Assembly (NCBI GenBank): GCA_963663235.2 | Contig: CAXXNO010000008.1 | Coordinates: 128,001-192,000, forward strand | From: Dehalococcoidia bacterium | GTDB lineage: Bacteria > Chloroflexota > Dehalococcoidia > Bin125 | DNA: 64,000 nucleotides | Direction: 5' to 3' | In this document: positions 16,201 to 45,384 of the stretch, in pieces | How the letters are laid out: each line of letters opens with the position of its first letter | Position numbering within the stretch: position 1 is the first letter of the stretch | Program-made: the position numbers and the translations under genes | The notes under the pieces: model-generated | What the model was told of the DNA's origin: nothing | The model's input: the letters and a program-made list of their open reading frames with translations, nothing else | Database searches by the model: none

Positions 16201-16316
16201 CCGCAGCTCCTCAGGCCGCCGCATTCTCTCCGCCTGCCCTCATACTACCGCGTCAACGCCACCGCCCGGCAGAGCAGCAGCGACCACGAGCGGACGAACG
16301 CCGGACCCGTCCGCGT

Positions 16317-17687: not shown

Positions 17688-18364
17688 CAGTAGCCGTGCC
17701 CTTTCAGCGTGTCGAAGTGATAGAACTCCCGTGCAGAGCCGATGCGGGTCACGTTCTCCGGATCGATGTGATCGAAGCCCGCTTGCTGGATCAGCTGCCG
17801 CACCAAACAGACATCCTCCGCGCGGAGCTCCTCCACCCGCGCGTCCGCCCCCAGCGACCGGACCGTGCCGCCCACGTAGATCACGGCTTCGTAGAGTGAG
17901 TCTCCCAACGCTTCCCCGGCGTCCCCGCCGATTAAGAGGACTCCTGCCTGCGCCATGAACCCGCTCATGTGCCCCGCATCGCCGGCGACGGCGATGGTAC
18001 CTCCTTTGAGGGAAATTCCAGCCCGCGATGAGGCGTCGCCCTCGATGACGATGATCCCGCCGTGGCTCGACGCGCCCGCGCACTCCGAGGCATTCCCGCG
18101 GACTCGCACACTGCCTCTCATCAGGTTTTCGCCCACCGACCAGCCGACGAACCCATTCACCGTGATCTCCGGTCCATCGCACAGACCGCCGATGAAGTAG
18201 CCGGCGTTCCCGTCGATGCTGATCGTGATGCGGTTCGCTAGCCCGGCGGCCAGGTTGTGGCGTCCGTTCGGCTCGGTGACGGTGACGTCGGTGCCGTCGG
18301 AAAGGGCTGCCAGCCGCTGGTTGACTTCGCGGGTGCTGAGCTCCGCGCAGCTCAGCGAGACCAT
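17687..18364 (-). CDS. mgsB: N-methylglutamate synthase GXGXG subunit (GlxC/MgsB)
   Basis: Beta-helix GxAGxxxG repeats, RAGISLKG, LGDSLYE. Confidence 0.88.
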   Translation of the reverse strand: MVSLSCAELSTREVNQRLAALSDGTDVTVTEPNGRHNLAAGLANRITISIDGNAGYFIGGLCDGPEITVNGFVGWSVGENLMRGSVRVRGNASECAGASSHGGIIVIEGDASSRAGISLKGGTIAVAGDAGHMSGFMAQAGVLLIGGDAGEALGDSLYEAVIYVGGTVRSLGADARVEELRAEDVCLVRQLIQQAGFDHIDPENVTRIGSAREFYHFDTLKGHGY

Positions 18365-19248
18365 ACGTGGATCTCCTCGGGCATCGGTTCAAAGACCGTA
18401 GCCTCCCGGATGCCGGGCAGCCCGGCGAGCGCGCGGTACTCGGAGGCCATGGCCACGTAGTCGTCGCACTCCGCGATCACCGCTGGCTTGCAGGCGAACG
18501 CGTCGCGCACCACGGCGAATTCATTGCGCGTGGCCACCAACAAGGTAAAAAACCCGTCGAGGGTGGTGAGCACCTTATCGAGCGCTTGCGCCAGGGTGTC
18601 TCCGTCTGCCATCTGCTGGGCCATATAGCGGGCGGCGACCTCCGAGTCGTTGTCCGTATCGAATCGGATCCCCTCGTCCATCAAGCGCCGCCGGACCGTG
18701 GCGTAGTTCGAGAAGCTGCCGTTGTGGACCAGGCAGAAGTCCGCCGCTGCCGCGAAGGGGTGCGAGTGGTCCGTAGTGACAGCCGACTCCGTGGCCATCC
18801 GCGTGTGCCCCAGGCCCTGGTACCCCGAGCGATCCGCCGTCCCGTAACGCTGACAGACGTCGCTTGGCGATCCAACGTCCTTGTAGACTTCTAGGGCGTG
18901 TCCGAACGCAAAGACACGGACCTCTGGAGCTTCCGCCTTGAGCGCATCGAGCAGTTGCTCGGTCCCGTGCTCCGCGATCAGGACGGCATCATCGGCGATG
19001 CGGCGAATCTGAGTCCCGCTGTCCGGCCGTCCGTTCAAGCGGTGGGCCAGGCCCTCCCAGTCGTAGCCGGGGCCGGGAGCGCGCAGGGAGTAGCGATAGC
19101 TGCCTTCCGGCAGGCCGTCCTCGTACAGCGCGATGCCCGCGGAGTCGGGGCCCCTCTCGCTCATGGCGAGCAGCATGGGCGTTAGCCAGGCGCCCAGCCG
19201 CGGATACAGAGCCGGTTTCTTGAGGTGCAGCCCGACAATCCCGCACAT
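18352..19248 (-). CDS. mgsA: N-methylglutamate synthase amidotransferase subunit (GlxB/MgsA)
   Basis: N-terminal MCGIVG (Ntn Cys), RGPDSAG, GHTRMATES, HNGSFSN, TDNDSEV. Confidence 0.88.
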   Translation of the reverse strand: MCGIVGLHLKKPALYPRLGAWLTPMLLAMSERGPDSAGIALYEDGLPEGSYRYSLRAPGPGYDWEGLAHRLNGRPDSGTQIRRIADDAVLIAEHGTEQLLDALKAEAPEVRVFAFGHALEVYKDVGSPSDVCQRYGTADRSGYQGLGHTRMATESAVTTDHSHPFAAAADFCLVHNGSFSNYATVRRRLMDEGIRFDTDNDSEVAARYMAQQMADGDTLAQALDKVLTTLDGFFTLLVATRNEFAVVRDAFACKPAVIAECDDYVAMASEYRALAGLPGIREATVFEPMPEEIHVWSR

Positions 19249-19426
19249 GGCGTCGCTGTCTCCTCTGCTTGCTGAACGCCTTCCCGGCGCCGCGCAAGGG
19301 TTCCCACATGGTACCGGGCGTCGCAGCTGCGGCAACTTCGTAGCCAGCATATCCGCGGCCACCGCGGTTTGTCGTATCCTGGGCAACCGCCGGGCGGTGG
19401 ACGCGCCGAGCGACAGGAGGAAGCCC

Positions 19427-20785
19427 GTGGGCGAAGGTCACGCGGACTTGAAGAGACGGGCGCAGCAGGACGGCATCGAGTTCTTCTTCGCGATGTTCGT
19501 TGACATGCACGGCAAGCCTTGCGCCAAATTGGTGCCGGCGGCCTCGTTCGACGCCCTGATGTCGGATGGCGTCGGCTTCGCCGGCTTCGCGGCGGGCCCC
19601 CTGGGCCAGAGCCCGGCCGATCCCGATTTGATCGCCATCCCGGATCCCGCCTCCTACACGCCGGTCCCCTGGCAGCACGGGCTTGCCGTGCTCCACTGCG
19701 ACCTCCACGTCAACGGCGAGAAATGGCCGTACTCCCCCAGGGTCATCCTCAAGCGCCAGCTCGCGCGTCTCGCCGAACGGCGGATGGTCTTTAACTGTGG
19801 CGCGGAGATCGAATACTTCCTGGTGCGCCGCACCGACGATGGAGGGATCGCCCCTGCCGATCCGCTCGATACCGCGGCGCAGCCCTGCTACGACGCCAAG
19901 GGGCTCACCCGAATGTACGACCATCTCACCGTGGTCTCGCGTTATCTCAATCGCCTCGGCTGGGGCAACTACGCCAATGACCACGAGGACGCCAACGGCC
20001 AGTTCGAGCAGAACTTCGCCTACGCCGACGCCCTGACCACCGCCGATCGGGTCATCTTCTTCCGCTACATGGTGCACACCCTCGCGAATCAGGCCGGGCT
20101 TGTGGCCACCTTCATGCCGAAGCCGTTTGCCCACCTGACCGGGAGCGGCATGCATATCCACTCCAGCCTCTGGAACACGGAAACGGGCGAGCCGCTCTTC
20201 CTCGATCCGGCGGACGCACGGGGCTTGGGATTGTCAAAGCTGGCCTACCAGTTCATCGCCGGTCTGCTAGAGCACGCCCCGTCGATGATGGCCGTCATCG
20301 GCCCGACCGTGAACTCCTACAAGCGGATTGGCGTGGCCCCCCCGGTTTCTGGATCAACCTGGGCACCCGCCTATATCACCTACGGCGGCAACAATCGCAC
20401 CCAGATGCTGCGGGTCCCCGAATCGGGACGTGTCGAGAATCGCGCTGTAGACGGCTCGGCCAATCCGTACCTGGCCTTCACCGTCATGGCGGCTGCCGGC
20501 CTCGATGGCATCGACCGCGGCCTCGACCCCGGGGATCCAAACCGCGACAATCTCTACGCCCTGCACCCCGACGAAGTGAAGACGCGCGGCATCAAGGTCG
20601 TGCCGGAAACCCTCACCCACGCAGTAGATGAGCTGGTGCAGGACTCCGTGCTCCGGGAGGCGCTGGGCAAAGTCCGCACGGGCGACTACATCGATTACTT
20701 CGCCCGTACCAAGCGGGACGAGTTCGCGGAGTTCCACCGGGCCGTGGGCGCGTGGGAACTTAATCGCTACCTGACGCTCTTCTAG
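19427..20785 (+). CDS. gmaS: Type III glutamate-ammonia ligase / gamma-glutamylmethylamide synthetase (GlnT/GmaS)
   Basis: AKLVP, GFAGFA, PCYD, YANDHEDANGQFE, FMPKPF, GGNNRT; AGGAGG RBS before GTG 19427; adjacent to mgsABC. Confidence 0.9.
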   Translation: MGEGHADLKRRAQQDGIEFFFAMFVDMHGKPCAKLVPAASFDALMSDGVGFAGFAAGPLGQSPADPDLIAIPDPASYTPVPWQHGLAVLHCDLHVNGEKWPYSPRVILKRQLARLAERRMVFNCGAEIEYFLVRRTDDGGIAPADPLDTAAQPCYDAKGLTRMYDHLTVVSRYLNRLGWGNYANDHEDANGQFEQNFAYADALTTADRVIFFRYMVHTLANQAGLVATFMPKPFAHLTGSGMHIHSSLWNTETGEPLFLDPADARGLGLSKLAYQFIAGLLEHAPSMMAVIGPTVNSYKRIGVAPPVSGSTWAPAYITYGGNNRTQMLRVPESGRVENRAVDGSANPYLAFTVMAAAGLDGIDRGLDPGDPNRDNLYALHPDEVKTRGIKVVPETLTHAVDELVQDSVLREALGKVRTGDYIDYFARTKRDEFAEFHRAVGAWELNRYLTLF

Positions 20786-20882
20786 GTGGACCCGCGTCTG
20801 CCACCGCTCTATGCTGGGCCGCTGCAGCCACGGCGATCCTTTGTCTGCGACGTACGCCCGTGGTCTGGCCACCTGGTGCACG

Positions 20883-22181
20883 ATGTGGCGACCGCTGAAC
20901 GGACTGCTTGGCAACGGCAGAGGATCGGGGCCGCGGGCGCGCTACTCAGCGTTCGGGTTGCTCCGCCGCGGCCTCTCCGGGGCTGATTGGCCCCCCGCCT
21001 GGTCGACGCACGATCTAGCGCCCTCCTACGACGTGGTGGTGATCGGCGGTGGTGTGCACGGCCTCGCCACGGCCTACTACCTGGCCACCAACCACGGCCT
21101 CCGCAACGTCGCCGTCATTGAGAAGCGCTACATCGGCAGCGGCGCCTCGGGCCGCAATACGGCGATTATCCGCTCCAACTACCTAACTCCGGAGGGCGTC
21201 CGCTTCTACCACCGGTCGCTCAAGCTGTATGAGAGGCTCGCGGCCGACCTCAACTTCAACGTCATGTTTGAGCAGCGCGGTCATCTCACCCTCGCCCACA
21301 ACGATTCCTCGGTCCGCACCATGCGTTGGCGGGCGGAGGTCAACAAGCTTGAAGGGGTAGACTCCGAGGTCATCGGCCCCACCGAGGTCAAGGAGCTGGC
21401 GCCGTTCCTCGATGTCTCGGAGCAGACCCGCTATCCGATCCTCGGAGCGCTGTATCACCCGCCCGGCGGCATCGTCCGCCACGACGCAGTCGTCTGGGGC
21501 TATGCCCGCGGCGCCAGCGCCCGCGGCGTGCATATCCATCAGGACACCGAGGTCCTCGATATCAACGTGATCGGCGGCAAGGTCAGGGGTGTGGTCACCA
21601 ACCGCGGCGAGATCGCGACGCCTGTGGTCGTCAACTGCACGGCCGGCTGGTCCTCAGTGATCGCCGGCATGGCGGGGGTCGAGCTCCCGATCGAGACCTT
21701 CCCCCTCCAGGCGGCTGTCACGGAGCCTGTGAAGTTCTTCCTCAATCCGGTGATCGTGTCGGGGACGCTCCATGTATACGTGAGCCAGACCGCCCGCGGC
21801 GAGCTGGTCTTCGGCGCCAGCGTGGATCCGTTCACGTCCTATTCCACCCAAGGCTCGCTCGAATTCACCGAGGAGTTGGCCGGCCACGTCTTGCAGCTGA
21901 TGCCATCGCTTGCCCGGCTGCGCCTGCTGCGGCAGTGGGCCGGCCTCTGCGACATGACGCCGGACTTCTCACCGATCATCGGCGCCACGCCCGTCGCGGG
22001 ATTCTACATCGACGTGGGCTGGGGTACCTATGGCTTCAAGGCAGGGCCAGTGGCCGGAGAGGCCATGGCTGAGTTCATCGCTACCGGCACGCCGCCGGAG
22101 ATCATCGCCACGTTCGATCTCGCTCGGTTCGACGAAGGCCGGCTCGTGGGCGAGAAGGGCGCGGCCGCGGTTGGACACTAG
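20883..22181 (+). CDS. soxB: Sarcosine oxidase beta / N-methylglutamate dehydrogenase subunit (MgdA); start uncertain
   Basis: IGGGVHGLATAYYLA, GRNTAIIRSNY, RHDAVVWGYA, GWGTYGFKAGP. Confidence 0.9.
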   Translation: MWRPLNGLLGNGRGSGPRARYSAFGLLRRGLSGADWPPAWSTHDLAPSYDVVVIGGGVHGLATAYYLATNHGLRNVAVIEKRYIGSGASGRNTAIIRSNYLTPEGVRFYHRSLKLYERLAADLNFNVMFEQRGHLTLAHNDSSVRTMRWRAEVNKLEGVDSEVIGPTEVKELAPFLDVSEQTRYPILGALYHPPGGIVRHDAVVWGYARGASARGVHIHQDTEVLDINVIGGKVRGVVTNRGEIATPVVVNCTAGWSSVIAGMAGVELPIETFPLQAAVTEPVKFFLNPVIVSGTLHVYVSQTARGELVFGASVDPFTSYSTQGSLEFTEELAGHVLQLMPSLARLRLLRQWAGLCDMTPDFSPIIGATPVAGFYIDVGWGTYGFKAGPVAGEAMAEFIATGTPPEIIATFDLARFDEGRLVGEKGAAAVGH

Positions 22182-22199
22182 GCGCAAGGAGCGGTCGCC

Positions 22200-22505
22200 G
22201 TGATCCTGATCCCCTGCATCCATTGCGGCCCGCGTAACGCCTCCGAGTTCGCGTACCTGGGCGAACTGGGCCGCCAGCCGGACCCCAACACCACAACGCC
22301 ACCGGAATGGCGACGTTACCTCTACACCAAAGCCAACACCGCTGGCTGGACGGTTGAACGGTGGGTCCACCGTGCCGGCTGCGGGCGCTTCTTTACGGTG
22401 GAGCGGAACACGCTCGACAACAAGATCCGCACGGCTCGACCCCCCGACGCGCAGATCCGTCTTATCCAGCAGGCCGGACGAGCAGACCCAAAGGCCGACG
22501 CATGA
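22200..22505 (+). CDS. soxD: Sarcosine oxidase delta subunit (MgdB)
   Basis: IPCIHCGPR...EF, ERWVHRAGC zinc ligands. Confidence 0.9.
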   Translation: MILIPCIHCGPRNASEFAYLGELGRQPDPNTTTPPEWRRYLYTKANTAGWTVERWVHRAGCGRFFTVERNTLDNKIRTARPPDAQIRLIQQAGRADPKADA

Positions 22506-25375
22506 CAACCATGCTCCGGGCAGCCGGCAGCGCTGCGCGTCTCGGGCCGCAGCCTGGCGAGGTCATCGACCGAGCGCATCGCTTCACGTTCAGATGGAAT
22601 GGCGCGGAAACCGCCGCCTACGCCGGTGACACCATCATCTCGGCGCTGGCGGCGGCCGGAGAACGCGTCTTCTCCCGGAGCTTCAAGTATCACCGGCCGC
22701 GCGGACTCCTCACCGCCAGCTTCATCGACCCCGGCTGTCTGGTGCAAGTAGGGAAGGAGCCCAACGTCCGCGGCGCGCACCGCCGCGTGGAAGCCGGCAT
22801 GGCGGTCCGGGCACAAAACGTCTGGCCGTCGCTCCGCTATGACGTGATGGCGCTCAACCAGGCAATGACTCGGATGCTGCCGCCCGGATTCTACTACAAG
22901 ACGTTCATGGCGCCGCGCGCTTTGTGGCCCGCCTATCAGATGGTGCTGCGACGCTTCGCGCCTGGCGGAGTCGTCACCAACACCAGAACAGACGCCTACT
23001 TCGATAAGCGCTACGCCCACCCAGACGTCCTGATCGCTGGCGGCGGACCGGCTGGCATGGCGGCGGCGGTGGCCGCCGCCGACGAGGGCGCGAAAGTGTT
23101 GTTGGTCGAGGAGGAGTACGAGCTGGGTGGCCACCTCCGTTGGGGCACTGAGGCAGACCTGGCGACCCTGCGCGAGTTGCGCGACGCGGTGGCGGCAAAC
23201 GAGCGCGTGGAGATCATGACCAACTCGACCGTCGCCGCCCGCTACGACGGTAACTGGGTGGCGGTGGCCCAGCGCAACCTTCGCCACGTTGATGAGCGCC
23301 TCATTAAGGCGCGCGCGAAGGTGCTGGTGGTGGCGCCCGGGTTAATTGAGCGGCCCTATGTCTTCGCCGGGAATGACAAGCCTGGTGTCATGCTCTCGAC
23401 CGCGGTGCGGCGCTTAATCAACCTCTACGCTGTGAAGCCGGGCGACCGCGCCGTCGTCTTCACCGCGAACGAGGCCGGCGATGCCGCCATCGCCGATCTG
23501 GAGCGCGCCGGGGTCCAGATCGCGCGGGTTGTCGACGCCCGTCGGGGCGGCAACCTCGTTCGGGCGCGCGGACGCGGCGGCGTACAAGAGGTGCACTTGG
23601 CGGACGGTGCCCGGGTGGAGGCGGACCTCCTCGTTACGGCGGTTGGCTGGACCGCCCCGACAACGCTGCTCACCATGGCGGGCGGCCACCCCGTGTACAA
23701 CCATCGGGCGGCTCGCTTCTTCCCTTCGGAACCGCCCGAAGACGTGCTGGCGACCGGCGGCATCGTCGGCGATGGCACGCTCGACCAGCTGCTCGCCCAT
23801 GCCCGTGCGGTGGGCGCGGAGGCCGCCCGCCGCGCGAGTATCCGCGCTCGCAACCTGCGCGCGGGCAACCCGACCGCGCCGAGCGTTGACCAGCGCTCTC
23901 CTGACTCATCATCCTCGTCCATTCCCGATCTCCCGATTGATGACAGCCCCGCCCTCTTCCGCAGCGCCACGCACGGCATCGTTGACTACTCGGAAGACGT
24001 CTCCTCCAAGGACATCTTCTCCGCGGTCCGTGAAGGCTATGACTCCATCGAGTTGGCGAAGCGTTACACGACCGCCACCATGGGACCGGCGCAGGGCAAG
24101 CTGGAGATGGTCAACGCCATCGCCGTTCACGCGGAGGCGGCCGGCCGGTCCATCGCGGAGACCGGCAGCACCACCTGGCGTCCGCCTTACGCGCCCGTCA
24201 CCCTCGGGGCCCTGGCTGGACGCGCGTTCGAGCCGGTGAGCGTCTCGCCCATGCAGCCGTGGCATGAGCGCCACGATGCCAGAGCGCTGATCGCCGGGCA
24301 CTGGATCCGCCCCGACCACTACGGCGACGCCGCGGCCGAAGTGCGCAACGTGCGCCGGAACGTCGGCATCATCGATGTGACGCCGCTCGGGAAGTTCGAC
24401 CTGCGCGGCCCAGACGTCCCGCGCCTGCTGAACCACCTGTACGTGAACAAGTGGTCCAAGCTCGCGATCGGATCGGTCCGATACGGCGTCATGTGCGCGC
24501 CAGACGGCGTCGTCCTGGATGACGGCGTGACCGGCCGGCTCGGCGAGGATCGCTACGTGATGACCACGACCTCGTCCGGTCCGGAGACCGTCTGGCGCTG
24601 GATCGAGGAGGCATTGCAGACCGAGCACCCCGAGTGGCGGGTGCATGTCATCCCAGTGACCGCCGCCTACGCCAGCATGAATGTGGCGGGCCCCAACTCC
24701 CGGGAGCTGATGTGCCGCGTCGTTGCGGACGTCGACCTCGACCCAGAGGCTTTCCCCTACATGCGCGTACGGAACGGTCGCATCGCTGGGGTGGATGGCT
24801 GCTTCATGTGGCGCATTGGCTTCACCGGAGAGCTGAGCTACGAGCTGCACGTCCCCGCCGCCTACGGTCTGCACGTCTGGGAGACGCTCCTGGATGTCGG
24901 CCGCGACCTCCATATCGGTCCTTTCGGCATCGAAGCGCAGCGAATCATGCGGCTGGAGAAGGGGCACTTCATCGTGGGGCAAGATACGGACGCCCTGACG
25001 GGCGCCTTCGCCGCTGGCCTTGCCCCGCTCGTGAAACTCGACAAGGAGGATTTCATCGGCAAGCCGGAGCTGATCTGGCAAGAGGGGCACGAAGACATCC
25101 TCCATCTCGTTGCTCTCCAGCCGGTGGACAGCTCCGTCGTGCCGCCGGAGGGGAGCCAGATCATCGAGGGCCGGAGACGCATCGTGGGGCGCATTACCTC
25201 CAGCCGCATGTCCCCGACGCTCGGTCGCTCGATCTGTCTGGGCTTCGTCGCGCCGCACCTCAAGGAGCCCGGCGCCATCGTCACCGTCCGCCTGCCGGAC
25301 GGCGGGCATGTCCCCGCGACCGTCATGGAGCATCACGCCCATTTCGATCCGGAAGGGGTGCGCCTCCGTGGTTGA
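22502..25375 (+). CDS. soxA: Sarcosine oxidase alpha subunit (MgdC) with GcvT-like folate domain
   Basis: RSFKYHRPRG, GFYYKTFM, GGGPAG, KRYTTATMG, DVTPLGK, GFTGELSYE, RLEKG. Confidence 0.9.
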   Translation: MTTMLRAAGSAARLGPQPGEVIDRAHRFTFRWNGAETAAYAGDTIISALAAAGERVFSRSFKYHRPRGLLTASFIDPGCLVQVGKEPNVRGAHRRVEAGMAVRAQNVWPSLRYDVMALNQAMTRMLPPGFYYKTFMAPRALWPAYQMVLRRFAPGGVVTNTRTDAYFDKRYAHPDVLIAGGGPAGMAAAVAAADEGAKVLLVEEEYELGGHLRWGTEADLATLRELRDAVAANERVEIMTNSTVAARYDGNWVAVAQRNLRHVDERLIKARAKVLVVAPGLIERPYVFAGNDKPGVMLSTAVRRLINLYAVKPGDRAVVFTANEAGDAAIADLERAGVQIARVVDARRGGNLVRARGRGGVQEVHLADGARVEADLLVTAVGWTAPTTLLTMAGGHPVYNHRAARFFPSEPPEDVLATGGIVGDGTLDQLLAHARAVGAEAARRASIRARNLRAGNPTAPSVDQRSPDSSSSSIPDLPIDDSPALFRSATHGIVDYSEDVSSKDIFSAVREGYDSIELAKRYTTATMGPAQGKLEMVNAIAVHAEAAGRSIAETGSTTWRPPYAPVTLGALAGRAFEPVSVSPMQPWHERHDARALIAGHWIRPDHYGDAAAEVRNVRRNVGIIDVTPLGKFDLRGPDVPRLLNHLYVNKWSKLAIGSVRYGVMCAPDGVVLDDGVTGRLGEDRYVMTTTSSGPETVWRWIEEALQTEHPEWRVHVIPVTAAYASMNVAGPNSRELMCRVVADVDLDPEAFPYMRVRNGRIAGVDGCFMWRIGFTGELSYELHVPAAYGLHVWETLLDVGRDLHIGPFGIEAQRIMRLEKGHFIVGQDTDALTGAFAAGLAPLVKLDKEDFIGKPELIWQEGHEDILHLVALQPVDSSVVPPEGSQIIEGRRRIVGRITSSRMSPTLGRSICLGFVAPHLKEPGAIVTVRLPDGGHVPATVMEHHAHFDPEGVRLRG

Positions 25376-25994
25376 CCGTGCCCCGCTTGCTCGCAGCCCC
25401 ATCGATCCCGCTCCCCCGGTCGCGGTCGTCGATGGTTGGGAGGTCAGCGATCGGCAAAGCTCCGCTGCCCTACGAATCGTCGACTGCACGCCCCTGGCGA
25501 AGGTCCTCGTGCGTGCCGACGGCGACGGAGAAGCGGCGCGGACGCTCGATGTCGGTTTCGGCAACGCGCGGCGGGACGCCGCCGGCACTCTCGTAGTTGG
25601 CGATGGGCCGGATGAGTGGATTTTACTGGCGCCTCCGGGGAGCGCGCCGACACTGGCACAGCGGCTGGACAATCTGGCCTCAGGCGAGTTCGTCAGCGTC
25701 CTCGATGTCACCCACGTCCGCGCTCTGATCCGGCTGACCGGCGAGGATGCGGCCCACCTCTTGGCCAAGGTCTGCGCCATCGACCTCGACGAGCAGGTAA
25801 CGCCCAACGGCGCCGCCTTTCGTAGCTCGGTGGCCGAGGTGGTGACCGACGTCGTTCGCGATGATCAGGCCAGTGCGCGTTCCTACCTGCTTCACTGCGA
25901 GCGCTCGTTCGGCCAGTACCTGTTCGATGCCTTGCTGGATGCGGGCAACGAGTTCGGCATGGACATCGACGGCTTCCGGCCGCCCGGGATCTGA
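25368..25994 (+). CDS. soxG: Sarcosine oxidase gamma subunit (MgdD)
   Basis: GPDEW, LAKVCAIDL, RSFGQYL; overlaps soxA stop. Confidence 0.85.
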   Translation: MVDRAPLARSPIDPAPPVAVVDGWEVSDRQSSAALRIVDCTPLAKVLVRADGDGEAARTLDVGFGNARRDAAGTLVVGDGPDEWILLAPPGSAPTLAQRLDNLASGEFVSVLDVTHVRALIRLTGEDAAHLLAKVCAIDLDEQVTPNGAAFRSSVAEVVTDVVRDDQASARSYLLHCERSFGQYLFDALLDAGNEFGMDIDGFRPPGI

Positions 25995-26057
25995 GCAGCC
26001 CGTGCCGCACCCTCGCTCCACCCCGAGTCACCAACGCCCACGCCCTGCGTACCGGCA

Positions 26058-26738
26058 ATGACTGACCTCTCCGCGCTCCTGGCCACGCTTCAACACGGCG
26101 ATAGCTTCTTCCCCAGCGGCGCCATCGCCTTCTCGCACGGCCTGGAAACCCTCCGCGCCGATGGCGAAGTCACTACCGCCGACGAGGTCGAGCGATTCAT
26201 CCTCGGGCAACTGTGGGGCCGCTGGGCCTCGTGCGACCGTGCCATCCTCACCGCCGCCTACCACGCGGGCGCCGATCTCGACCGGGTGGAGCACGCCGAT
26301 CGACTCCTGGACGCCATCGCGCTTCCCCGCGAGCTGCGCGAGGGCTCGCGCCGGACGGGGGCCGCGCTGCTCGGAGTCCACGTGGATCTGGGCACCCACA
26401 ACGCCCGGGCATACCGGGAACGGACGGACACGGACGAGGCGCTCGGTCACCTCTCCGCGGTCCAGGGTCTTGTCTGGCGCGGCATCGGCCTGTCCTTGGA
26501 TGAAGCCGGCGCGGCGGCCGTTCACGCGCTTTGCATCGCGCTGCTGGGCGCCGCCTTGCGCCTGAGCGTGATCGGCCACGTCTCGGCTCAGCGCCTCCTC
26601 GGTGGCCTGCGGCCGGCTCTCGTGCAACTGCTGGCGCAGGAGCCGCCCTCACTGGACGAGATCCACACCTTTGCTCCGCTGCCGGAGATTGCTGTGATGC
26701 GACACGAGACCCAGACGAGCCGGCTGTTTTCCAACTGA
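26058..26738 (+). CDS. ureF: Urease accessory protein UreF
   Basis: [17 protein letters not shown]-terminus; [12 protein letters not shown]-terminus. Confidence 0.9.
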
Positions 26739-26763
26739 CGAGTTGGGTGAAAGGGATAAGCCG

Positions 26764-27465
26764 ATGCTACTGATACCGACGGAGATCGAGCGCCTGATGA
26801 TCTTCAGTGCGGCCGAGCTCGCGCGGAAGCGTCGGGCCCGGGGACTGAAACTCAATCATCCCGAGGCTGTTGCTCTGATCACTGATGAGATCCTCGAAGG
26901 CGCTCGCGATGGGCGATCGGTCGCCAATCTCATCGGCTTCGGCGCGACTCTACTGACCACCGACGACGTCCTCCCCGGCGTCGCCGAGATGGTGTCAGTC
27001 GTCCAGGTGGAAGGCACCTTCCTCGATGGCACCAAGCTGGTCACGGTCCATGACCCGATCCGGCCGGGGAAGGAGGAGATCCCTCCGGCGCGAGCGGTCG
27101 TTCCGGGCGAGATCATCACTGCCGACGGCGACATCGAGTTGAATGCGGGCCGTAGTAGGGCCACGGTGACGGTCACGAACACCGGCGACCGCCCGGTCCA
27201 AGTTGGTAGCCATTACCATTTCTTCGAAGTCAACCGCCATCTCGACTTCGATCGCGCGGCCGCGTTCGGCCTCCGGCTTGATATCCCGGCGGGAACCGCG
27301 TTGCGCTTCGAGCCCGGCGAGAGCAAAGCAGTGACCCTCGTCGAGTTCGGGGGCAACGGCGAACTCTCCGGCCTCAACAGCCTCACCGTCGGCTCGCGCC
27401 ACTCCACCGACACCAAGGAGCGGGCCATCCATCGCGCCCGCGAGCGCGGCTTCAAGGGAGCTTGA
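26764..27465 (+). CDS. ureAB: Fused urease gamma/beta subunit
   Basis: [10 protein letters not shown] and [18 protein letters not shown] (gamma), then [19 protein letters not shown] and [15 protein letters not shown] (beta). Confidence 0.93.
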
Positions 27466-27468
27466 GCC

Positions 27469-29181
27469 ATGGCAACGATCACACGCCGCCGTTACGCCAC
27501 CCTGTACGGCCCCACCACGGGCGATGCGATCCGCCTGGCCGACACCTCACTTCTCGCCGAGATCGAGCACGACTTCGCCGTATACGGCGACGAGTGCTTG
27601 CATGGCGGTGGCAAGACCCTTCGTGATGGCATGGGGTTGGTGTCCGGCCTCACCAGCGAGGCCGGATCGCTCGACATGCTGCTCAGCAACGCCGTCGTGA
27701 TTGATCCCGTGATCGGCGTCGTCAAGGCCGATATCGGGATCAAGGAGGGCCGGATCTCGGGTATCGGAAAGGCGGGAAACCCGGCTGTCATGGACGGAGT
27801 CGACCCATCCTTGCTTTGCGGGGCGGCGACCACCGTCCGCGACGCCGAGGGATTGATCGCAACGCCCGGCGGCATCGACTGTCACGTCCACTTCGACAGC
27901 GCCCAGCTCTGCGAACACGCCATCAGCAGCGGCGTGACGACGATGCTGGGCGGATCGCTAGGCCCGATTACCGTGGGGATCGACTCGGGCGGCGCCTGGA
28001 ATGTGGCCCGGATGCTCCAGGCCGCTGAGCACTGGCCGATCAACTTCGGCTTCCTGGGCCGGGGTAACTCCTCCGACCCGCGCTCCCTGATCGATCAGAT
28101 CGAAGGCGGCTGCATGGGGCTCAAGATTCACGAGGACTGGGGCGCGATGCCGGCCGTCATCGACACCTGCCTCAGCGTCGCTGACGAGATGGATTTCCAG
28201 GTCCAGCTCCACACCGACACGCTGAACGAGAGCGGCTTTCTGGAGGATACGCTCGCAGCCATCAACGGCCGCACCATCCACATGTACCACGCGGAGGGCG
28301 CCGGTGGTGGCCACGCACCGGACATCATTCGCGTCTCCGGCGAGCCGAACTGCCTCCCCTCCTCCACCAACCCGACGAATCCTTACACGGTCAACACGTT
28401 CGATGAGCACCTCGACATGATCATGGTCTGCCACCACCTCAATCCGGCGGTGCCGGAGGATGTGGCCTTCGCCGAGAGTCGCATCCGCGCGGAGACCATC
28501 GCCGCGGAAGATGTGCTGCATGACCTGGGGGCCATCTCCATGCTCGGCTCGGATAGCCAAGGCATGGGCCGCATCAGCGAGGTGATCTGTCGCACCTGGC
28601 AACTGGCTAGCAAGATGCGAGATCAGCGCGGCCGCTTGCCCGGAGAGCGCCTCGCCCGTGGCGACAACGAGCGCATCAAGCGCTACATCGCCAAGTACAC
28701 CATTAATCCCGCACGAGCCTTCGGCATCGATGCCCACGTGGGTTCGCTGGAGTCGGGCAAGCTCGCCGACGTGGTGCTCTGGCGGCCGGCCTTCTTCGGC
28801 ATAAAACCAGAGCTCGTCATCAAAGGCGGCTTTATCGTTTGGTCCGCCATGGGCGATAGCGCCGCCTCGCTGATGACCTGTGAGCCGCTGATGTTGCGCC
28901 CGCAATGGGGCGCCTTCGGGAGCGCGCCGCAGGCGCTGAGCCTGGCTTTCGTCTCCCAGGCTGCGATGGACCGTGACATCAAAGGCCGGCTCGACTTGCG
29001 CACGGAGGTTGTGCCGGCGAAGAACACGCGCCGGCTCACCAAGGGGAATATGCTGCATAACGATGTGTGTCCGGAGGTGCGCGTGAACCCTGAGACATTC
29101 GAGGTCCATGTCGACGGCGAACTGGCCACCTGCGAGCCGGCGCAGGAACTTCCCCTCGCCCGCCGCTACATGCTGCGATGA
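27469..29181 (+). CDS. ureC: Urease alpha subunit homolog (divergent substrate pocket)
   Basis: [56 protein letters not shown]. Confidence 0.93.
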
Positions 29182-29834
29182 CGGCCTCAGCGGACGGTGA
29201 GCGCTCCGGTCCCAAGCGCATCGGCATCGGCGGGCCCGTGGGGTCGGGCAAGACGGCGCTGATCGAGGCACTGATTCCGCGCCTGCATTACCGCGGCTAC
29301 GAGGTCGCCATCGTGACCAACGACCTGGTGACGCAAGAGGACGCCGAACGCCTCCAGCGCGCCGGATCCATTGCCCCCGAGCGCGTGGTCGGTGTGGAGA
29401 CAGGCGCCTGCCCCCACACCGCCATCCGTGAGGACCCGACGCTGAACATCGCCGCGGCTGATCGCCTCGCGAGGCGCTTTCGCTTGCTGGACCTGATCTT
29501 GATCGAGAGCGGCGGCGACAACTTGGCTTCCACCTTCTCCCGCGAACTCGTGGATTACTGGCTCTTCGTGATCGATGTAGCCGCCGGCGACGATGTCCCG
29601 CGGAAGCGCGGCCCCGGCCTGATCCAGTGCGATCTCCTCGTGGTCAACAAGATCGATCTCGCGCCCTACGTTCACGCCAATCTCGATGTCATCCGCAGGG
29701 ACAGCGTCATGCTTCGCGGCGACCGGCCGATCGCCTTCACCAACTGTCAGACCGGTGACGGGATCGAGTCGGTCATGCAGCTCCTCACGGGCGACGTCCT
29801 TCAGCGAGCATCCGCGAGAGCCGGTCCCTTGTGA
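29178..29834 (+). CDS. ureG: Urease accessory GTPase UreG
   Basis: [31 protein letters not shown]. Confidence 0.95.
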
Positions 29835-30709
29835 CGGCATCCGTGCTCGGCGGCGCGCCGCCGCTGCCCGCTTCCGGCGCCAGCGGCGGCCGGGCCGAGT
29901 TCCGCTTCGAGCGCGCGCCCGGTGGTCGCACCTATTTGGCGGGGCAGTACGTCGAGTACCCGTACCACGTTACCCGTCCCCTCTATCTCGAGCCCTCGTG
30001 GCCGGAGCTGCCCATGCTGTGTGTGCAGTCGGCATCGGGCGGTCTCTTCCAGGGCGACCGGCTGCAACTGACGGCTGCGCTGGGGCAGGAAGCCGCGGTT
30101 CAGGTGACCACGCAGTCCGCGACCAAGGCCCACAGGATGCAGCGCGATCACGCAGTCCAGTCGGTTGATCTCGCTCTCGCCCCTGGAAGCTATCTCGAAT
30201 ACCTCGCCGATCCCCTCATCCTGTTTCCCGGCGCCCGCGTCCTCGCGTCCGTGGCGGTACGCCTCAGCGAAGATTCCTCCGCGATCGTGCGGGAGTCGTT
30301 CCTCCACCATGACCCGGCCGGTTCGCGCGAGGCGGCTTTTAGTCTCCTTGTCAGCGAGGTTGCCATCTCCCGTCCAGACGGGACACTGCTCGCCCTGGAC
30401 CGGCAGCGGATCTGTCCGGCCGGCGATACGCGGGAAGTCCGCGATCTCTTGCGCCGCTTTCCTGCGCAGGGGGCCGTCTATGCGCTCGGCGCTTCGTCTC
30501 TGCCTCAACTCACGGAACAGCTGCGCCACGCGCTCGATGCATCCCCCGCCTGCTACGGCGGGGCCTCCGCCCTCCCCAATGGCTGCGGGGCGTACCTGCG
30601 CGTACTCGCCCCGGATGGTGAATCACTGCGGGCCGCTCTCGACCTCGCCTGCGCCGCTGCCCGTTGGTCGATCACGCGCCGTCCCGTCTCCCATCACTGG
30701 CGGAAGTAA
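29831..30709 (+). CDS. ureD: Urease accessory protein UreD/UreH
   Basis: [26 protein letters not shown]. Confidence 0.9.
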
Positions 30710-30858
30710 GGGGCGCCCTGTTGCCCCGCAGCGGGCTGTCCTCGCCGACCGTCTTCTATTAACTGCCCGGCAGGCGACCGCTTGTCTCATTCGCCGCCTG
30801 TAGGAAGGGCACAACGATCTGGTCTCCAATCGCCGTTGGCAAGAGCGCCGGGCTCATC

Positions 30859-32127
30859 TTGGCCGGCCGGCGCAAGGTCTACTACGGCTGGTGGCTGCTC
30901 GCCGCCGTCGTGCCGGCGCAGGCTGTGCTCACCGGTGTCTCCTTCTGGTCGTTCGGCCTCTACATCAAGCCGCTGGAAGATCAGTTCGGCTGGTCGCGTG
31001 CGGAGGTATCGCTCGGCTTCTCCGTCGCGCTGCTGATCAGCGGCCTCACCGCGCCGCTCGTCGGCAAGGCGATCGACGTCTATGGCCCCCGGCGGGTAAT
31101 CGTCATCGGCGCGGTCCTGTCGGTCGCCAGCTACCTCCTGCTCGCCACCACCAGTTCGCTGTGGCAGTGGTACGCGTACCAGTCGATCAACGCCGTCTTC
31201 CGGCAAATGATCTTCTTCATCCCCTTCACGGCCCTGATCGCGATCTGGTTCGATCGGCGGCGCGGTACCGCGATCGGCATTCTCGCCACCGGCTTCGCGC
31301 TCGGCGGCATGGTCATGGTGCCCGTGATGCGGGTCGTTATCGACTCTGTCGAATGGGATGGCTCTTTCCTCGTCTCTGCGGCGCTGATTGGCGTGCTCTT
31401 TCTGCCGCTGGGGCTCCTGCTGGTCCGGAACCGCCCCGCCGACGTGGGCGCGGAGGTGGATGGGGAGCCGCGGTTGGGCGCCGCGCCGAAAGCGCCGGTC
31501 GCTCCGGTCGGGATGACCCTCAGTCAGGCGCTGCGGACGCCGCTGTTCTGGGCGCTCGCCCTGGCATTCGCGTTCTTCTTCTACGGCCTCTTCGGATGGA
31601 CCGTGCATGCCATCCCCTACTACGAGTCCGTCGGCCTCTCGCCGGGCTGGGCCGTGGCTTTCTTCTCCATCGCCTCCGGCGCCGCCGTGCTCACTCGCCT
31701 GACGTTCGGAATCCTTGCGGACCGGATCCGCAACATCGAGAGGGCCGCTGCCATACTCGCCGTTTTTTTGGTGGTCGCCATGCTGGTCCTGTACGTGACG
31801 GCCGGGTCGACGCTTGGGTTGGCGCTCTTCGTGCCCCTCTTCGTGATCGGCACCGGCGGCGGACCCATGTTCGAGCCGCTCTTGCTCACCCGGTCCTTCG
31901 GTATCGCTCACTTCGGCACGATCCTGGGCGCCGTGGCGGCGGTGGACACGGTGGGCCTCGTGATCAGCCCCACCGTGGCCGGCGCAATCTTCGACGCCAC
32001 CGGCGCCTATGATTGGGCGCTGGTGATGTTCATCGGGGCCTTCGGCGCGTCGTCGGCTCTGTTCTGGGTGGCAGGACGGCTGCGACATCCGGCTCCCACG
32101 CCGCCGCGGCCCGCTCTGGAGCCGTAA
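30859..32127 (+). CDS. MFS transporter
   Basis: About 12 hydrophobic segments; YYGW, FGWSRA, GKAIDVYGPRR, WFDRRRG. Confidence 0.9.
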   Translation: MAGRRKVYYGWWLLAAVVPAQAVLTGVSFWSFGLYIKPLEDQFGWSRAEVSLGFSVALLISGLTAPLVGKAIDVYGPRRVIVIGAVLSVASYLLLATTSSLWQWYAYQSINAVFRQMIFFIPFTALIAIWFDRRRGTAIGILATGFALGGMVMVPVMRVVIDSVEWDGSFLVSAALIGVLFLPLGLLLVRNRPADVGAEVDGEPRLGAAPKAPVAPVGMTLSQALRTPLFWALALAFAFFFYGLFGWTVHAIPYYESVGLSPGWAVAFFSIASGAAVLTRLTFGILADRIRNIERAAAILAVFLVVAMLVLYVTAGSTLGLALFVPLFVIGTGGGPMFEPLLLTRSFGIAHFGTILGAVAAVDTVGLVISPTVAGAIFDATGAYDWALVMFIGAFGASSALFWVAGRLRHPAPTPPRPALEP

Positions 32128-32230
32128 GCGGGGCCTCCGGCCAAGTCGCCTGCAGGGAGAGCGCGACAGTAGCCACGGGGATGGCCTAGCGTAGCCCAGC
32201 AGATGGCCAGCGTCGGCGACAAGGAGACAC

Positions 32231-40702: not shown

Positions 40703-40727
40703 GGTCTTGCCTGATTGAGCATCAACC

Positions 40728-45351: not shown

Positions 45352-45384
45352 AGGCTGTGAGCCGACGAGGAGCGCGGAACAGTA

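What the first reader, a model, noticed from the sequence alone, without database searches (positions are those of the whole stretch)
19427..30709. Candidate new system: remodelled urease co-operonic with methylamine oxidation (putative N-methylurea amidohydrolase pathway)
Seen: ureF begins 63 nt after soxG, so gmaS-soxBDAG-ureF-ureAB-ureC-ureG-ureD form one same-strand run. UreC keeps the Ni ligands and catalytic motifs (HxH, carbamylated K in [17 protein letters not shown] flap, SD). It departs from canonical urease motifs as I recall them: GGGTGPAxGTNATTCTPG becomes the shorter [15 protein letters not shown] (from 27949); DSQAMGR becomes DSQGMGR (28561); KFGGGK becomes LHGGGK; HFICPQ becomes HFDSAQ; GDPNASIPTPQP becomes [12 protein letters not shown]. 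Established: the Ala of NATT and the Ala of DSQA line the urea-binding site. Inference: an enlarged pocket accepts N-methyl- or dimethylurea, releasing methylamine that the adjacent GmaS/Mgs/Mgd enzymes consume.
Basis: partly seen in the sequence, partly recalled or inferred. Interest (0 to 1): 0.9.

Follow-up and report, generated by a model that had tools for sequence, protein, structure and literature searches.

The report
Remodelled urease tied to methylamine pathway
A complete nickel-urease gene set with a rebuilt substrate pocket sits directly behind the genes for methylamine breakdown, and enzymes of this type occur almost only in bacteria that can use methylamine, so it may split a methylated urea-like compound rather than plain urea.

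Summary
In detail: mgsCBA <> gmaS-mgdABCD-ureF-ureAB-ureC-ureG-ureD, with 63 nt and no terminator-like site between mgdD and ureF. UreC keeps every nickel ligand and catalytic residue. The two pocket elements that hold the Ni(2)-bound urea nitrogen are changed: the Ala167 loop is 3 residues shorter, and Ala363 is Gly.

These changes define a conserved, widespread paralog lineage, which this scan met before on other DNA (e1-4766400, e1-4432244). It usually coexists with a canonical urease (22 of 26 genomes) and usually sits in AmiC/AmiR/AmiE-type amide clusters, not next to methylamine genes.

Three results here are new.
- In the window's own family, all 5 genomes with this urease have it directly downstream of a methylamine (NMG) operon, at two different junctions.
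- A distant basal member (L130) is fused to NMG genes in a third order.
- Carriers almost always have GmaS: 11 of 11 against 15 of 69 canonical-only genomes in one class sample, and 23 of 24 against 29 of 267 in a second order.

Best reading (about 0.45): an N-methylurea or N-methyl-amide hydrolase that feeds methylamine to the NMG pathway. An ordinary urease remains plausible (about 0.3). No biochemistry exists for this lineage. It is a new variant of a known kind.

The parts
16317..17690 (-). mgsC, N-methylglutamate synthase subunit C (glutamate-synthase FMN domain); start approximate
   Evidence: PF01645 Glu_synthase, E 5e-95. Relatives are 82-83% identical in L094 and L109.
17687..18364 (-). 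mgsB (GXGXG domain protein)
   Evidence: PF01493, E 3.7e-10. Relatives are 70-76% identical in L094-L097 and L109.
18352..19386 (-). mgsA (class-II glutamine amidotransferase piece); start approximate
   Evidence: PF13522 and PF13537.
19427..20785 (+). gmaS, gamma-glutamylmethylamide synthetase family
   Evidence: TIGR03105, 603.7 bits against cut-off 469.6. The 452-aa form is the one on record (P0121).
20811..22181 (+). mgdA (SoxB-like FAD subunit of N-methylglutamate dehydrogenase)
   Evidence: PF01266, E 3.8e-79. TIGR01373 scores 514.4, just under its 529.45 cut-off.
22200..22505 (+). mgdB (SoxD-like)
   Evidence: PF04267, E 2.6e-25.
22502..25375 (+). mgdC (SoxA-like, with folate-binding GCV_T domain)
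   Evidence: PF01571, PF17806, PF13510, PF08669. TIGR01372 scores 829.7, under its 1164 cut-off.
25380..25994 (+). mgdD (SoxG-like); start approximate
   Evidence: PF04268, E 1.2e-7. Relatives are 52-59% identical in the same position.
25995..26057 (+). 63-nt mgdD-ureF spacer without a terminator-like hairpin
   Evidence: In genus g5 the two genes abut (L096: mgdD match ends at 8594, ureF match begins at 8594).
26058..26738 (+). ureF accessory protein
   Evidence: PF01730, E 1e-27.
26743..27465 (+). ureAB, fused gamma/beta structural subunit
   Evidence: NF009671, 356.3 bits against cut-off 243; PF00547 plus PF00699.
27469..29181 (+). ureC, catalytic alpha subunit of the variant ('clade A') lineage: Ni ligands intact, Ala167 loop shortened by 3 residues, Ala363 replaced by Gly
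29178..29834 (+). ureG GTPase
   Evidence: TIGR00101, 256.3 bits against cut-off 204.2.
29831..30709 (+). ureD accessory protein
   Evidence: PF01774, E 2.2e-39.
30859..32127 (+). MFS transporter downstream of ureD (oxalate/formate- or lactate-transporter-like, below cut-offs). It is not conserved in relatives, so it probably does not belong to the unit.
   Evidence: PF07690. NF049980 scores 153 against cut-off 320. No match in L094-L097.

Best explanation
The run ureF-ureAB-ureC-ureG-ureD encodes an intact, nickel-loaded amidohydrolase of the urease family. It belongs to a distinct, conserved and horizontally mobile paralog lineage. In the window's lineage the operon was acquired from a proteobacterial-type source, stripped of its usual AmiC/AmiR/Urt-like/UreE context, and placed directly downstream of a resident N-methylglutamate (NMG) operon. 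It is therefore probably transcribed together with gmaS-mgdABCD.

The catalytic machinery is unchanged: two Ni sites, the carbamylated Lys, the flap Cys-His, His219, Asp221 and Arg336. The two backbone elements that clamp the Ni(2)-bound amide nitrogen of urea are rebuilt.

I infer that the preferred substrate carries a substituent on that nitrogen. N-methylurea is the leading candidate, and N-methylformamide or N-methylacetamide are possible. Hydrolysis would then release methylamine, plus NH3/CO2 or an acid. GmaS, MgsABC and MgdABCD would convert the methylamine to methylene-tetrahydrofolate or formaldehyde and ammonium. Residual or dual activity on urea is likely.

Shown: gene content, motif changes, clade structure, the linkages and the co-occurrence. 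Inferred: co-transcription, direction of transfer, pocket enlargement and the substrate.
For: 1. Pocket. Of the 10 residues that the literature lists as enclosing the K. aerogenes active site (A167, H219, E220, D221, G277, C319, H320, R336, A363, M364; passages of PMC7433671), the window keeps 8. The 2 that differ are A167 (loop 3 residues shorter and rewritten) and A363 (now Gly). The backbone carbonyls of these two residues bind the Ni(2)-bound urea nitrogen, and the A366 C-beta touches the Ni(2) water.

2. The changes are fixed. There are 27 columns where at least 93% of 107 canonical sequences and at least 90% of 46 clade sequences each agree but differ from one another. They cluster at residues 143-147, 163-174, 227, 365, 379 and 465-480.

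3. The lineage is a paralog. 22 of 26 genomes with it also hold a UreC in the canonical 55-62% identity range. One genome holds three types and another holds four UreC copies.

4. Physical linkage in the family. 5 of 5 urease-bearing genomes of family f1 have the operon directly downstream of an NMG operon. It follows mgdD in genera g1 and g5 and follows mgsC in g4. A sixth genome has the NMG cluster without urease. The other 13 of 19 family genomes have neither.

5. Independent linkage. L130 has a UreC 65% identical and is the earliest-branching member of the superclade. It carries ureA-B-C-E-F-G-D-mgsA-B-C-x-gmaS-mgdB.. on one strand, and its GmaS scores 571.5 against cut-off 469.6.

6. Genome-wide co-occurrence with GmaS (TIGR03105 over its cut-off):
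- 20 of 26 clade genomes against 5 of 50 genomes of canonical loci;
- in a 301-genome class sample, 11 of 11 carriers against 15 of 69 canonical-only and 23 of 220 without urease (Fisher p 7e-7);
- in a 291-genome order sample, 23 of 24 carriers against 29 of 267 others.
The class-sample carriers are deep, separate lineages, with RpoB 60-83% identical pairwise for the 10 recovered. In most of them the two loci lie on different contigs or megabases apart. A control pathway, urea carboxylase, is found in 0 of 11 carriers against 15 of 290 others.

7. The five family genomes have no UrtA-like urea-binding protein.
Against: - No enzyme of this lineage has been assayed. I found no paper on it in 7 full-text searches.
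- The protein passes the urease-alpha equivalog cut-off and keeps everything needed for urea hydrolysis.
- In the 5 family genomes, and in 4 of 26 other carriers, it is the only urease found. An ordinary role in urea use would explain its retention there.
- Most clade members sit in acetamide-type clusters (AmiR in 11 of 34, aliphatic amidase-like CN_hydrolase in 12 of 34, CbbQ/VWA in 10 of 34). None of these 34 loci has NMG genes beside it.
- The GmaS association could be confounded by methylotrophy or lifestyle.
- Related genomes are not independent, so the Fisher p-values overstate the case.
- The substituted-nitrogen argument rests on sequence alone. No coordinates, pocket volume or docking were available.
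- No importer for methylurea is evident in the window.
Confidence: 0.45

Rival explanations
1. It is an ordinary urease. The lineage still hydrolyses urea, and its pocket differences are neutral or tune affinity or regulation. In this family it sits behind the NMG operon only because urea and methylamine are both scavenged nitrogen sources expressed under the same nitrogen-limitation control.
For: - It passes TIGR01792 (835.1 against cut-off 680), and all Ni ligands, the flap Cys-His, His219, Asp221 and Arg336 are kept.
- A full UreF/G/D set is present.
- It is the only urease found in G000 and in its 4 urease-bearing relatives.
- Urt-like permease and ATPase genes next to clade members pass the UrtB-E equivalog cut-offs.
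- Earlier agents of this scan reached this reading (e1-4766400, e1-4432244).
Against: - Segments that are 93-100% conserved across 107 canonical ureases from many phyla are replaced by a different, equally fixed set.
- 22 of 26 carriers keep a canonical-range urease as well, and some hold 3-4 UreC types.
- A plain urease has no reason to occur almost only in GmaS-positive genomes (34 of 35 carriers in two samples, against base rates of 10-22%).
- The binding proteins next to clade members score below the UrtA cut-off (316-399 bits against 492.75).
- The five family genomes have no UrtA.
Confidence: 0.3
2. It is an amidohydrolase for another small amide or urea analogue that releases no methylamine, such as formamide, acetamide, hydroxyurea, semicarbazide or biuret-like compounds. 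It would belong to the AmiC/AmiR amide regulon, and the link to methylamine genes would be ecological (C1 and nitrogen-scavenging lifestyles).
For: - AmiR is a clade-specific neighbour (11 of 34 loci against 0 of 77 canonical loci).
- So is CN_hydrolase (12 of 34 against 1 of 77); the one in L026 is an aliphatic-amidase equivalog (714.9 bits against cut-off 427).
- So is CbbQ/VWA (10 of 34 against 0 of 77).
- Several carriers are methylotrophs: Methylorubrum, Methylobacterium, Methylophaga, Chenggangzhangella.
Against: - It does not explain why the operon was spliced directly behind NMG operons at two junctions in one family and in a third order in L130.
- It does not explain why non-methylotroph carriers (P. 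syringae, Bradyrhizobium, R. palustris, a Pseudanabaena, the window's own lineage) also all have GmaS.
- The family genomes lack the AmiC/AmiR context altogether.
Confidence: 0.15
3. It is a dedicated urease for a precursor that yields urea and methylamine together. An example is methylguanidine split by a ureohydrolase, by analogy with dimethylguanidine hydrolase, which clusters with urease. Urease and the NMG pathway would then be the two downstream branches.
For: The logic is established for dimethylguanidine: DmgH gives dimethylamine plus urea and is clustered with urease genes (passages of PMC11399263). Earlier scan notes describe such operons (e1-1213474, e1-3193720).
Against: - No arginase-family gene was found anywhere in G000 (92% complete; 0 candidates) or in G012.
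- Where relatives have one, it lies far from the cluster.
- No ureohydrolase recurs among the neighbours of clade loci.
- This reading does not explain the remodelled pocket.
Confidence: 0.07

Closest known systems
Canonical nickel urease UreABC with UreDEFG (Klebsiella aerogenes, PDB 1ejw/2kau; Sporosarcina pasteurii; jack bean)
   Same: The UreC alignment to 1ejw_C runs full length at E 5.8e-211. All six Ni-site residues, the flap Cys-His, His219, Asp221, Gly277, Arg336 and Met364 are kept. UreF, UreG and UreD are present. It passes the urease-alpha equivalog cut-off.
   Different: - The gamma and beta subunits are fused.
- No UreE is found in the genome.
- The Ala167 loop is 3 residues shorter and rewritten, Ala363 is Gly, and 27 otherwise near-invariant columns are switched.
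- It is co-operonic with methylamine genes, and the lineage is almost confined to GmaS-positive genomes.
The 'ure2'-type fused gamma/beta urease cassette (ureE-ureF-ureAB-ureC-ureG-ureD) of Methylorubrum, Methylobacterium, Bradyrhizobium, Rhodopseudomonas, Pseudomonas syringae and Methylophaga. It is annotated by similarity only and was noted earlier in this scan (e1-4766400, e1-4432244).
   Same: Same clade (72-86% identity; the f1 sequences form a branch with 97% support nested inside it). Same gene order and the same motif set.
   Different: The window's copy lacks ureE, AmiC/AmiR, the Urt-like importer, AmiE and CbbQ/VWA. It is fused to the NMG cluster instead. It is also the only urease in its genome.
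N-methylglutamate pathway cluster gmaS-mgsABC-mgdABCD of methylamine-using bacteria (for example Methylobacterium; passages of PMC5017803)
   Same: The gene set is complete, with divergent mgsABC and gmaS-mgdABCD arms.
   Different: A urease-family operon is appended to one arm. I found no description of that arrangement in 7 full-text searches.
Dimethylguanidine hydrolase DmgH clustered with urease and C1-amine metabolism (PMC11399263)
   Same: The pathway logic joins a methylated-amine branch and a urease branch in one locus.
   Different: There is no ureohydrolase here. In the reading proposed here, the urease-family enzyme itself would be the methylamine-releasing step.
Pseudomonas aeruginosa amiEBCRS aliphatic amidase operon (recalled from memory, not from a call)
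   Same: Most clade members, though not the window's, are embedded in AmiE/CbbQ-type ATPase/AmiC/AmiR clusters.
   Different: The hydrolase in question is a dinickel urease homologue, not a CN_hydrolase. The window has none of the ami genes.

Membership tests
Nickel urease (EC 3.5.1.5), alpha subunit | Scores above the curated equivalog cut-off of the urease alpha model | tested here: met
   TIGR01792, 835.1 bits against cut-off 680; NF009686, 888.9 against 354.
Nickel urease (EC 3.5.1.5), alpha subunit | Dinickel site ligands: HxH, carbamylated Lys, two further His, Asp | tested here: met
   H139/H141, K219 in [17 protein letters not shown] and D362 align with K. aerogenes H134/H136, K217, H246, H272 and D360.
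Nickel urease (EC 3.5.1.5), alpha subunit | Catalytic and substrate-orienting residues: His219, Asp221, flap Cys319-His320, Arg336 | tested here: met
   All are conserved in the alignments.
Nickel urease (EC 3.5.1.5), alpha subunit | Urea-specific clamp for the Ni(2)-bound amide N: the Ala167 loop (GTxATTCTPG) and Ala363 (DSQAMGR) | tested here: not met
   The loop is 3 residues shorter ([11 protein letters not shown]) and Ala363 is Gly. Canonical sequences have Ala in 100% and the loop in 94-100% of 107. The role of these residues is taken from passages of PMC7433671.
Nickel urease (EC 3.5.1.5), alpha subunit | Accessory proteins UreD, UreF, UreG (and usually UreE) | tested here: met
   UreF, UreG and UreD are present. 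UreE_N was not found in G000 or in 4 relatives; I treat UreE as non-defining.
Nickel urease (EC 3.5.1.5), alpha subunit | Hydrolyses urea as the physiological substrate | not testable with these tools
   No assay was possible, and no published assay of this lineage was found.
Variant fused-gamma/beta urease lineage ('clade A' / ure2) | Fused UreAB and the order ureF-ureAB-ureC-ureG-ureD | tested here: met
   NF009671, 356.3 bits against cut-off 243. The same order is seen in the clade loci L003-L028 wherever the flanks allow.
Variant fused-gamma/beta urease lineage ('clade A' / ure2) | Motif set [20 protein letters not shown][CS][21 protein letters not shown] | tested here: met
Variant fused-gamma/beta urease lineage ('clade A' / ure2) | Falls inside the clade on a UreC tree | tested here: met
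   FastTree of 68 rows: clade A plus group B has 100% support, and the family f1 rows form a 97%-supported branch inside clade A. Support is SH-like only, with no bootstrap; the full 162-row maximum-likelihood run did not finish.
Variant fused-gamma/beta urease lineage ('clade A' / ure2) | Usual context: AmiC/AmiR, Urt-like ABC importer, UreE | tested here: not met
   None of these is in the window. No UrtA-like or UreE_N gene was found in the genome. Context is typical of the lineage, not defining.
N-methylglutamate pathway of methylamine oxidation | GmaS above the TIGR03105 cut-off | tested here: met
   603.7 bits against cut-off 469.6.
N-methylglutamate pathway of methylamine oxidation | Three-piece NMG synthase (amidotransferase, GXGXG, FMN glutamate-synthase domain) | tested here: met
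   PF13522/PF13537, PF01493 and PF01645 on three adjacent minus-strand genes.
N-methylglutamate pathway of methylamine oxidation | Four-subunit SoxBDAG-like NMG dehydrogenase | tested here: met
   PF01266, PF04267, PF01571 with others, and PF04268. All four score below the sarcosine-oxidase subfamily cut-offs. This fits NMG dehydrogenase rather than true sarcosine oxidase (inference).
N-methylglutamate pathway of methylamine oxidation | Methylamine-dependent activity | not testable with these tools
   No assay was possible.

The most novel reading that the evidence does not exclude
A widespread, horizontally mobile lineage of dinickel urease homologues is not a urease in the physiological sense. 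It is the first natural alkylurea (N-methylurea) or N-methyl-amide amidohydrolase. It releases methylamine, which the N-methylglutamate pathway consumes, and this is why the lineage is retained almost only in GmaS-positive genomes. Group B and the L130-type enzymes would then be further specificities of a hidden radiation of 'urease-like' amidohydrolases.
Probability: 0.35. Interest if true: 0.88.

Novelty: new variant of a known kind. Interest (0 to 1): 0.78.

Why it matters
Urease is a textbook enzyme noted for its strict specificity, and every member of the family is annotated as 'urease' by similarity. If one large lineage, present in about 4-8% of the sampled alphaproteobacterial-type and Burkholderiales-type genomes, has a different physiological substrate, three things follow.
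- Genome-based estimates of ureolysis would be inflated.
- A missing step in the fate of methylated ureas and amides would be filled. Such compounds arise from the breakdown of methylxanthines, methylated purines, phenylurea herbicides and carbamates, or from abiotic carbamoylation of methylamine. These sources are my own suggestions and come from no call.
- The NMG pathway would gain a new feeder reaction.

The remodelled Ni(2)-side clamp would also be a natural experiment on how urease achieves its specificity.

Even if the enzyme proves to be a plain urease, the near-obligate co-occurrence with GmaS (34 of 35 carriers) is an unexplained regularity worth following.

Tried and rejected
- Adjacency as a clade-wide feature is rejected. 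None of 26 genome loci and none of 24 metagenome clade-A loci has the NMG cluster beside the urease. The exceptions are partial: L018 has a 47% SoxB-like gene on the other strand, and L026 has a 42%-identical GmaS-family gene about 5 kb downstream.
- Co-product pathway through a ureohydrolase: no arginase-family gene in G000.
- Urea ABC importer or urea carboxylase in the family genomes: none over the cut-offs.
- Expression and co-transcription. The one metatranscriptome (X20) gave only three contigs of 151-183 nt on ureAB and ureC at depth about 3, and nothing across the mgdD-ureF junction. This does not show transcription of the junction, and DNA carry-over cannot be excluded.
- Promoter scan: 0 sigma-70-like sites in 18800-32300. 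This is uninformative for this organism.
- The full 162-row maximum-likelihood tree did not finish in time. I replaced it with a 68-row FastTree holding 24 of 46 clade-A rows, all 9 other DSQG rows and 35 of 107 canonical rows.
- Literature: 7 searches found nothing on this lineage or on any methylurea hydrolase.
- I did not run structure prediction or docking. The tools return no coordinates, so pocket size could not be measured.

Full report
**What is there.**
The window is 64 kb at 59-69% G+C. It comes from contig 8 of a 2.75-Mb, 14-contig genome that is 92% complete. Pfam and NCBIfam identify the following.
- Minus strand: mgsC, mgsB and mgsA, the three pieces of N-methylglutamate synthase.
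- Plus strand, divergent from these: gmaS (TIGR03105, 603.7 bits against cut-off 469.6), four SoxB/D/A/G-like genes (mgdABCD), then ureF, a fused ureAB (NF009671, 356.3 against 243), ureC (TIGR01792, 835.1 against 680), ureG and ureD.
- After ureD come an MFS transporter and two family-III CoA-transferases.

The mgdD stop (25994) and the ureF ATG (26058) are 63 nt apart, and no terminator-like hairpin lies between them. Contigs from three sequencing runs of three studies bridge the junction.

**The UreC differences.**
Aligned with K. aerogenes UreC (1ejw_C, E 5.8e-211), the protein keeps all nickel ligands, the carbamylated lysine motif, His219, Asp221, Gly277, the flap Cys-His, Arg336 and Met364. 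Two things differ in the pocket. The loop GPAAGTHATTCTPG is three residues shorter and rewritten as [11 protein letters not shown]. Ala363 of DSQAMGR is Gly.

A review of urease structures (PMC7433671, passages read) lists ten residues that enclose the K. aerogenes active site. The window keeps eight of them, and the two that differ are Ala167 and Ala363. The same review states that the backbone carbonyls of the equivalent S. pasteurii residues (Ala170, Ala366) hold the Ni(2)-bound nitrogen of urea in the urea complex. It also states that the Ala366 C-beta contacts the Ni(2)-bound water. That the pocket is enlarged remains an inference.

**A conserved lineage, not a one-off.**
The 120 nearest database proteins (81-100% identical) all carry the variant motifs. 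I collected 162 full-length UreC sequences from 80 genome loci and 80 metagenome loci plus relatives. Of these, 107 carry the canonical motifs, 46 carry the window's set ('clade A', 72-100% identical to the window), and 9 carry DSQG with other variations.

Twenty-seven alignment columns are at least 93% fixed in canonical sequences and at least 90% fixed to a different residue in clade A. They cluster at window residues 143-147, 163-174, 227, 365, 379 and 465-480.

A 68-row FastTree gives these groupings:
- a superclade (SH-like support 87) made of L130 as the earliest branch and then L024;
- a group with 100% support made of clade A and 'group B' (GG[ST]MGP[LV]FAIDCGG, GDPSGSYFQTEP);
- canonical ureases on the other side.

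All members keep the nickel ligands and the flap histidine.

**It is normally a second enzyme.**
Five named carriers (Pseudomonas syringae pv. cilantro, Methylorubrum rhodesianum, Chenggangzhangella methanolivorans, a Methylophaga and a Rhodopseudomonas palustris MAG) all hold a 55-61% identical UreC as well. Of 21 further carriers, 17 hold an extra UreC at 55-62% identity; I did not check the motifs of those copies. One genome (G055) has clade A, group B and a 55% copy, with A and B 28 kb apart. Another (G039) has four copies.

The window's genome is an exception. This is its only urease, and none of 31 relatives searched has a canonical one.

**Usual neighbourhood.**
Counts are loci with the neighbour, among 34 clade-A loci outside the window's family and 77 canonical loci, each with at least 5 kb of flank on one side.

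| Neighbour | Clade A (of 34) | Canonical (of 77) |
|---|---|---|
| UreE | 29 | 0 |
| AmiC/UrtA-like binding protein | 21 | 22 |
| Urt-like permease/ATPase genes (UrtB, UrtC, UrtD) | 15-20 | 22-29 |
| CN_hydrolase | 12 | 1 |
| AmiR antiterminator | 11 | 0 |
| CbbQ-type ATPase | 10 | 0 |
| VWA protein | 10 | 0 |
| NMG genes (at least 45% identity) | 1 (a SoxB-like gene in L018) | 0 |

- The UreE probe in this count was a clade-type UreE at BLAST sensitivity, so its absence from canonical loci is not shown.
- The CN_hydrolase in L026 is an aliphatic-amidase equivalog (714.9 bits against cut-off 427).
- The binding proteins next to clade members score 316-399 bits on the UrtA model, below its 492.75 cut-off. 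The permease and ATPase genes pass theirs.

So the lineage typically belongs to an acetamide-type amide regulon, as an earlier report of this scan noted (e1-4766400).

**Physical link to methylamine genes.**
In the window's family (19 genomes searched):
- five genomes from three genera carry this urease, and their UreCs form one branch with 97% support;
- the same five plus one more carry GmaS;
- the other 13 have neither.

In all five, the urease operon lies directly downstream of, and co-directional with, an NMG operon. In the window and in three genomes of genus g5 it follows mgdD; in g5 the mgdD and ureF matches abut. In G003 (genus g4) it follows mgsC, at the opposite end of the cluster. 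G005 has the NMG cluster without urease.

The nearest named relative of the window's GmaS is a Dehalococcoidia MAG (81%), followed by Actinomycetota (74%). The nearest UreC relatives outside the family are labelled Alphaproteobacteria. I infer that a proteobacterial-type cassette was acquired and wired into a resident NMG cluster, and that it lost ureE and the amide-regulon genes on the way.

Independently, metagenome contig L130 carries ureA-ureB-ureC-ureE-ureF-ureG-ureD-mgsA-mgsB-mgsC-(GltS-like)-gmaS-mgdB-mgdC' on one strand with tight spacing. Its UreC branches first in the superclade and has the short loop and DSQG. Its GmaS scores 571.5 against cut-off 469.6. None of about 100 canonical loci has NMG genes beside it.

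**Genome-wide link.**
GmaS over its curated cut-off was counted in four comparisons.

| Sample | Variant carriers with GmaS | Comparison groups with GmaS |
|---|---|---|
| Genomes behind the loci | 20 of 26 | 5 of 50 genomes of canonical loci (0 of the 9 labelled Pseudomonadota) |
| 301 genomes of the class of G036 | 11 of 11 (also G646, a 62% group-B-like copy) | 15 of 69 canonical-range only; 23 of 220 without urease |
| 291 genomes of the order of G054 | 23 of 24 | 29 of 267 non-carriers |

- For the class sample, Fisher p is 7e-7. It is 2e-6 without the centre genome, which was chosen for having the variant.
- Urea carboxylase, used as a control for general nitrogen-scavenging versatility, is found in 0 of 11 carriers and 15 of 290 others.
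- The ten class-sample carriers whose RpoB was recovered are 60-83% identical pairwise, so they are deep, separate lineages.
- In most carriers the urease and gmaS lie on different contigs or megabases apart. Hitch-hiking on one island does not explain the pattern.
- Seen the other way, no GmaS-negative genome in the class sample (0 of 251) and one in the order sample (1 of 239) holds the variant.

**Interpretation.**
The conserved catalytic core, the selective rebuilding of the Ni(2)-side clamp, the paralog status, the recurrent splicing to NMG operons and the near-obligate presence of GmaS together fit one reading best. The enzyme's product is methylamine. N-methylurea is the simplest substrate: it resembles urea closely enough for a UrtA-like binding protein, and it carries a substituent on one nitrogen. 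N-methylformamide or N-methylacetamide would also fit the amide-regulon context. I put this at about 0.45.

An ordinary urease (0.3) stays plausible. The protein has everything a urease needs, and it is the only urease in the window's family. That family also lacks a UrtA-type importer, urea carboxylase and, in G000, any arginase-family urea source. Other amides without methylamine release (0.15) and a co-product pathway of the alkylguanidine type (0.07; PMC11399263 passages) are weaker.

Main caveats:
- There is no biochemistry for this lineage.
- The association may be partly driven by methylotrophic lifestyle, and I could not control for that.
- Related genomes are not independent.
- The structural argument is made from sequence only.

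**Novelty.**
Seven full-text searches found no paper on this lineage or on any methylurea hydrolase. One paper notes only that Methylobacterium strains with the complete NMG pathway carry on average three urease copies (PMC5017803 passages); its supplements could not be opened.

The scan had met the lineage before on other DNA and judged it probably an ordinary urease (e1-4766400, e1-4432244, e1-1524561). The methylamine link is new here.

I class the finding as a new variant of a known kind, with interest 0.78.

Noticed in passing
L027 and L195 (genome G055: C1:1149881-1151584 and C1:1178498-1180207): One complete 6.2-Mb chromosome holds a group-B UreC (64% identity) and a clade-A UreC (84%) only 28 kb apart, plus a 55% canonical-range copy elsewhere. 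In the stretch fetched, the clade-A copy has ureF-ureAB-ureC but no ureG or ureD match after it.
   Followed up: partly
L026:14289-18115: Downstream of the variant urease in an Oxalobacteraceae genome lie an amino-acid permease, a creatininase-family protein (147 bits, below the creatininase cut-off of 235) and a second GmaS-family gene (538.8 bits, over the cut-off). This may be a separate, uncharacterised amine- or amide-handling trio.
   Followed up: partly
clade-A loci such as L007:12708-16095, L019, L020, L023, L026: A CbbQ/NorQ-type AAA+ ATPase with a large VWA-domain partner recurs beside the variant urease (10 of 34 loci) and never beside canonical ureases (0 of 77). It may be an activase or metal-insertion pair for the urease or for the neighbouring amidase.
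   Followed up: partly
L131, L027, L133, L134, L135 (group B): A sister group of UreC homologues has a 4-residue deletion in the Ala167 loop, KIHED[YL]G instead of KIHEDWG, GDPSGSYFQTEP, and a flap reading M[AS]CHLL or MMAHLL instead of MVCHHL. In L027 and L133 I found ureD but no ureF or ureG match nearby. Its function is unknown.
   Followed up: partly
L193 (G043:C14) and L194 (G039:C4): A further UreC type (67-68% identical to the window's) occurs as ureAB-ureC alone, with no accessory genes within about 9 kb, next to Liv/Urt-like ABC genes.
   Followed up: no
window 39612-47465: G+C drops to 0.59-0.62 between about 40 and 46 kb. The stretch begins with an integrase-core (rve_3) gene at 40008-40682 and holds an RidA-like gene, a sugar or polyamine-type binding protein and an ABC ATPase. 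It is probably a horizontally acquired insert.
   Followed up: no
window 11679-16239 (minus strand): A 996-aa fusion of FAD-linked oxidase, 4Fe-4S dicluster and CCG domains lies next to a D-glutamate cyclase-like gene, two ORFs without Pfam hits (14788-15300, 15301-15717) and a 173-aa ORF matching only the C-terminal third of glycine/sarcosine/betaine reductase B (GRDB). These sit immediately beyond mgsC and may relate to the methylamine or glycine-derivative theme.
   Followed up: no
window 32195-34752: Two adjacent family-III CoA-transferase (CaiB/BaiF-type) genes follow the MFS transporter downstream of ureD. They had no match in the relatives' loci L094-L097.
   Followed up: no
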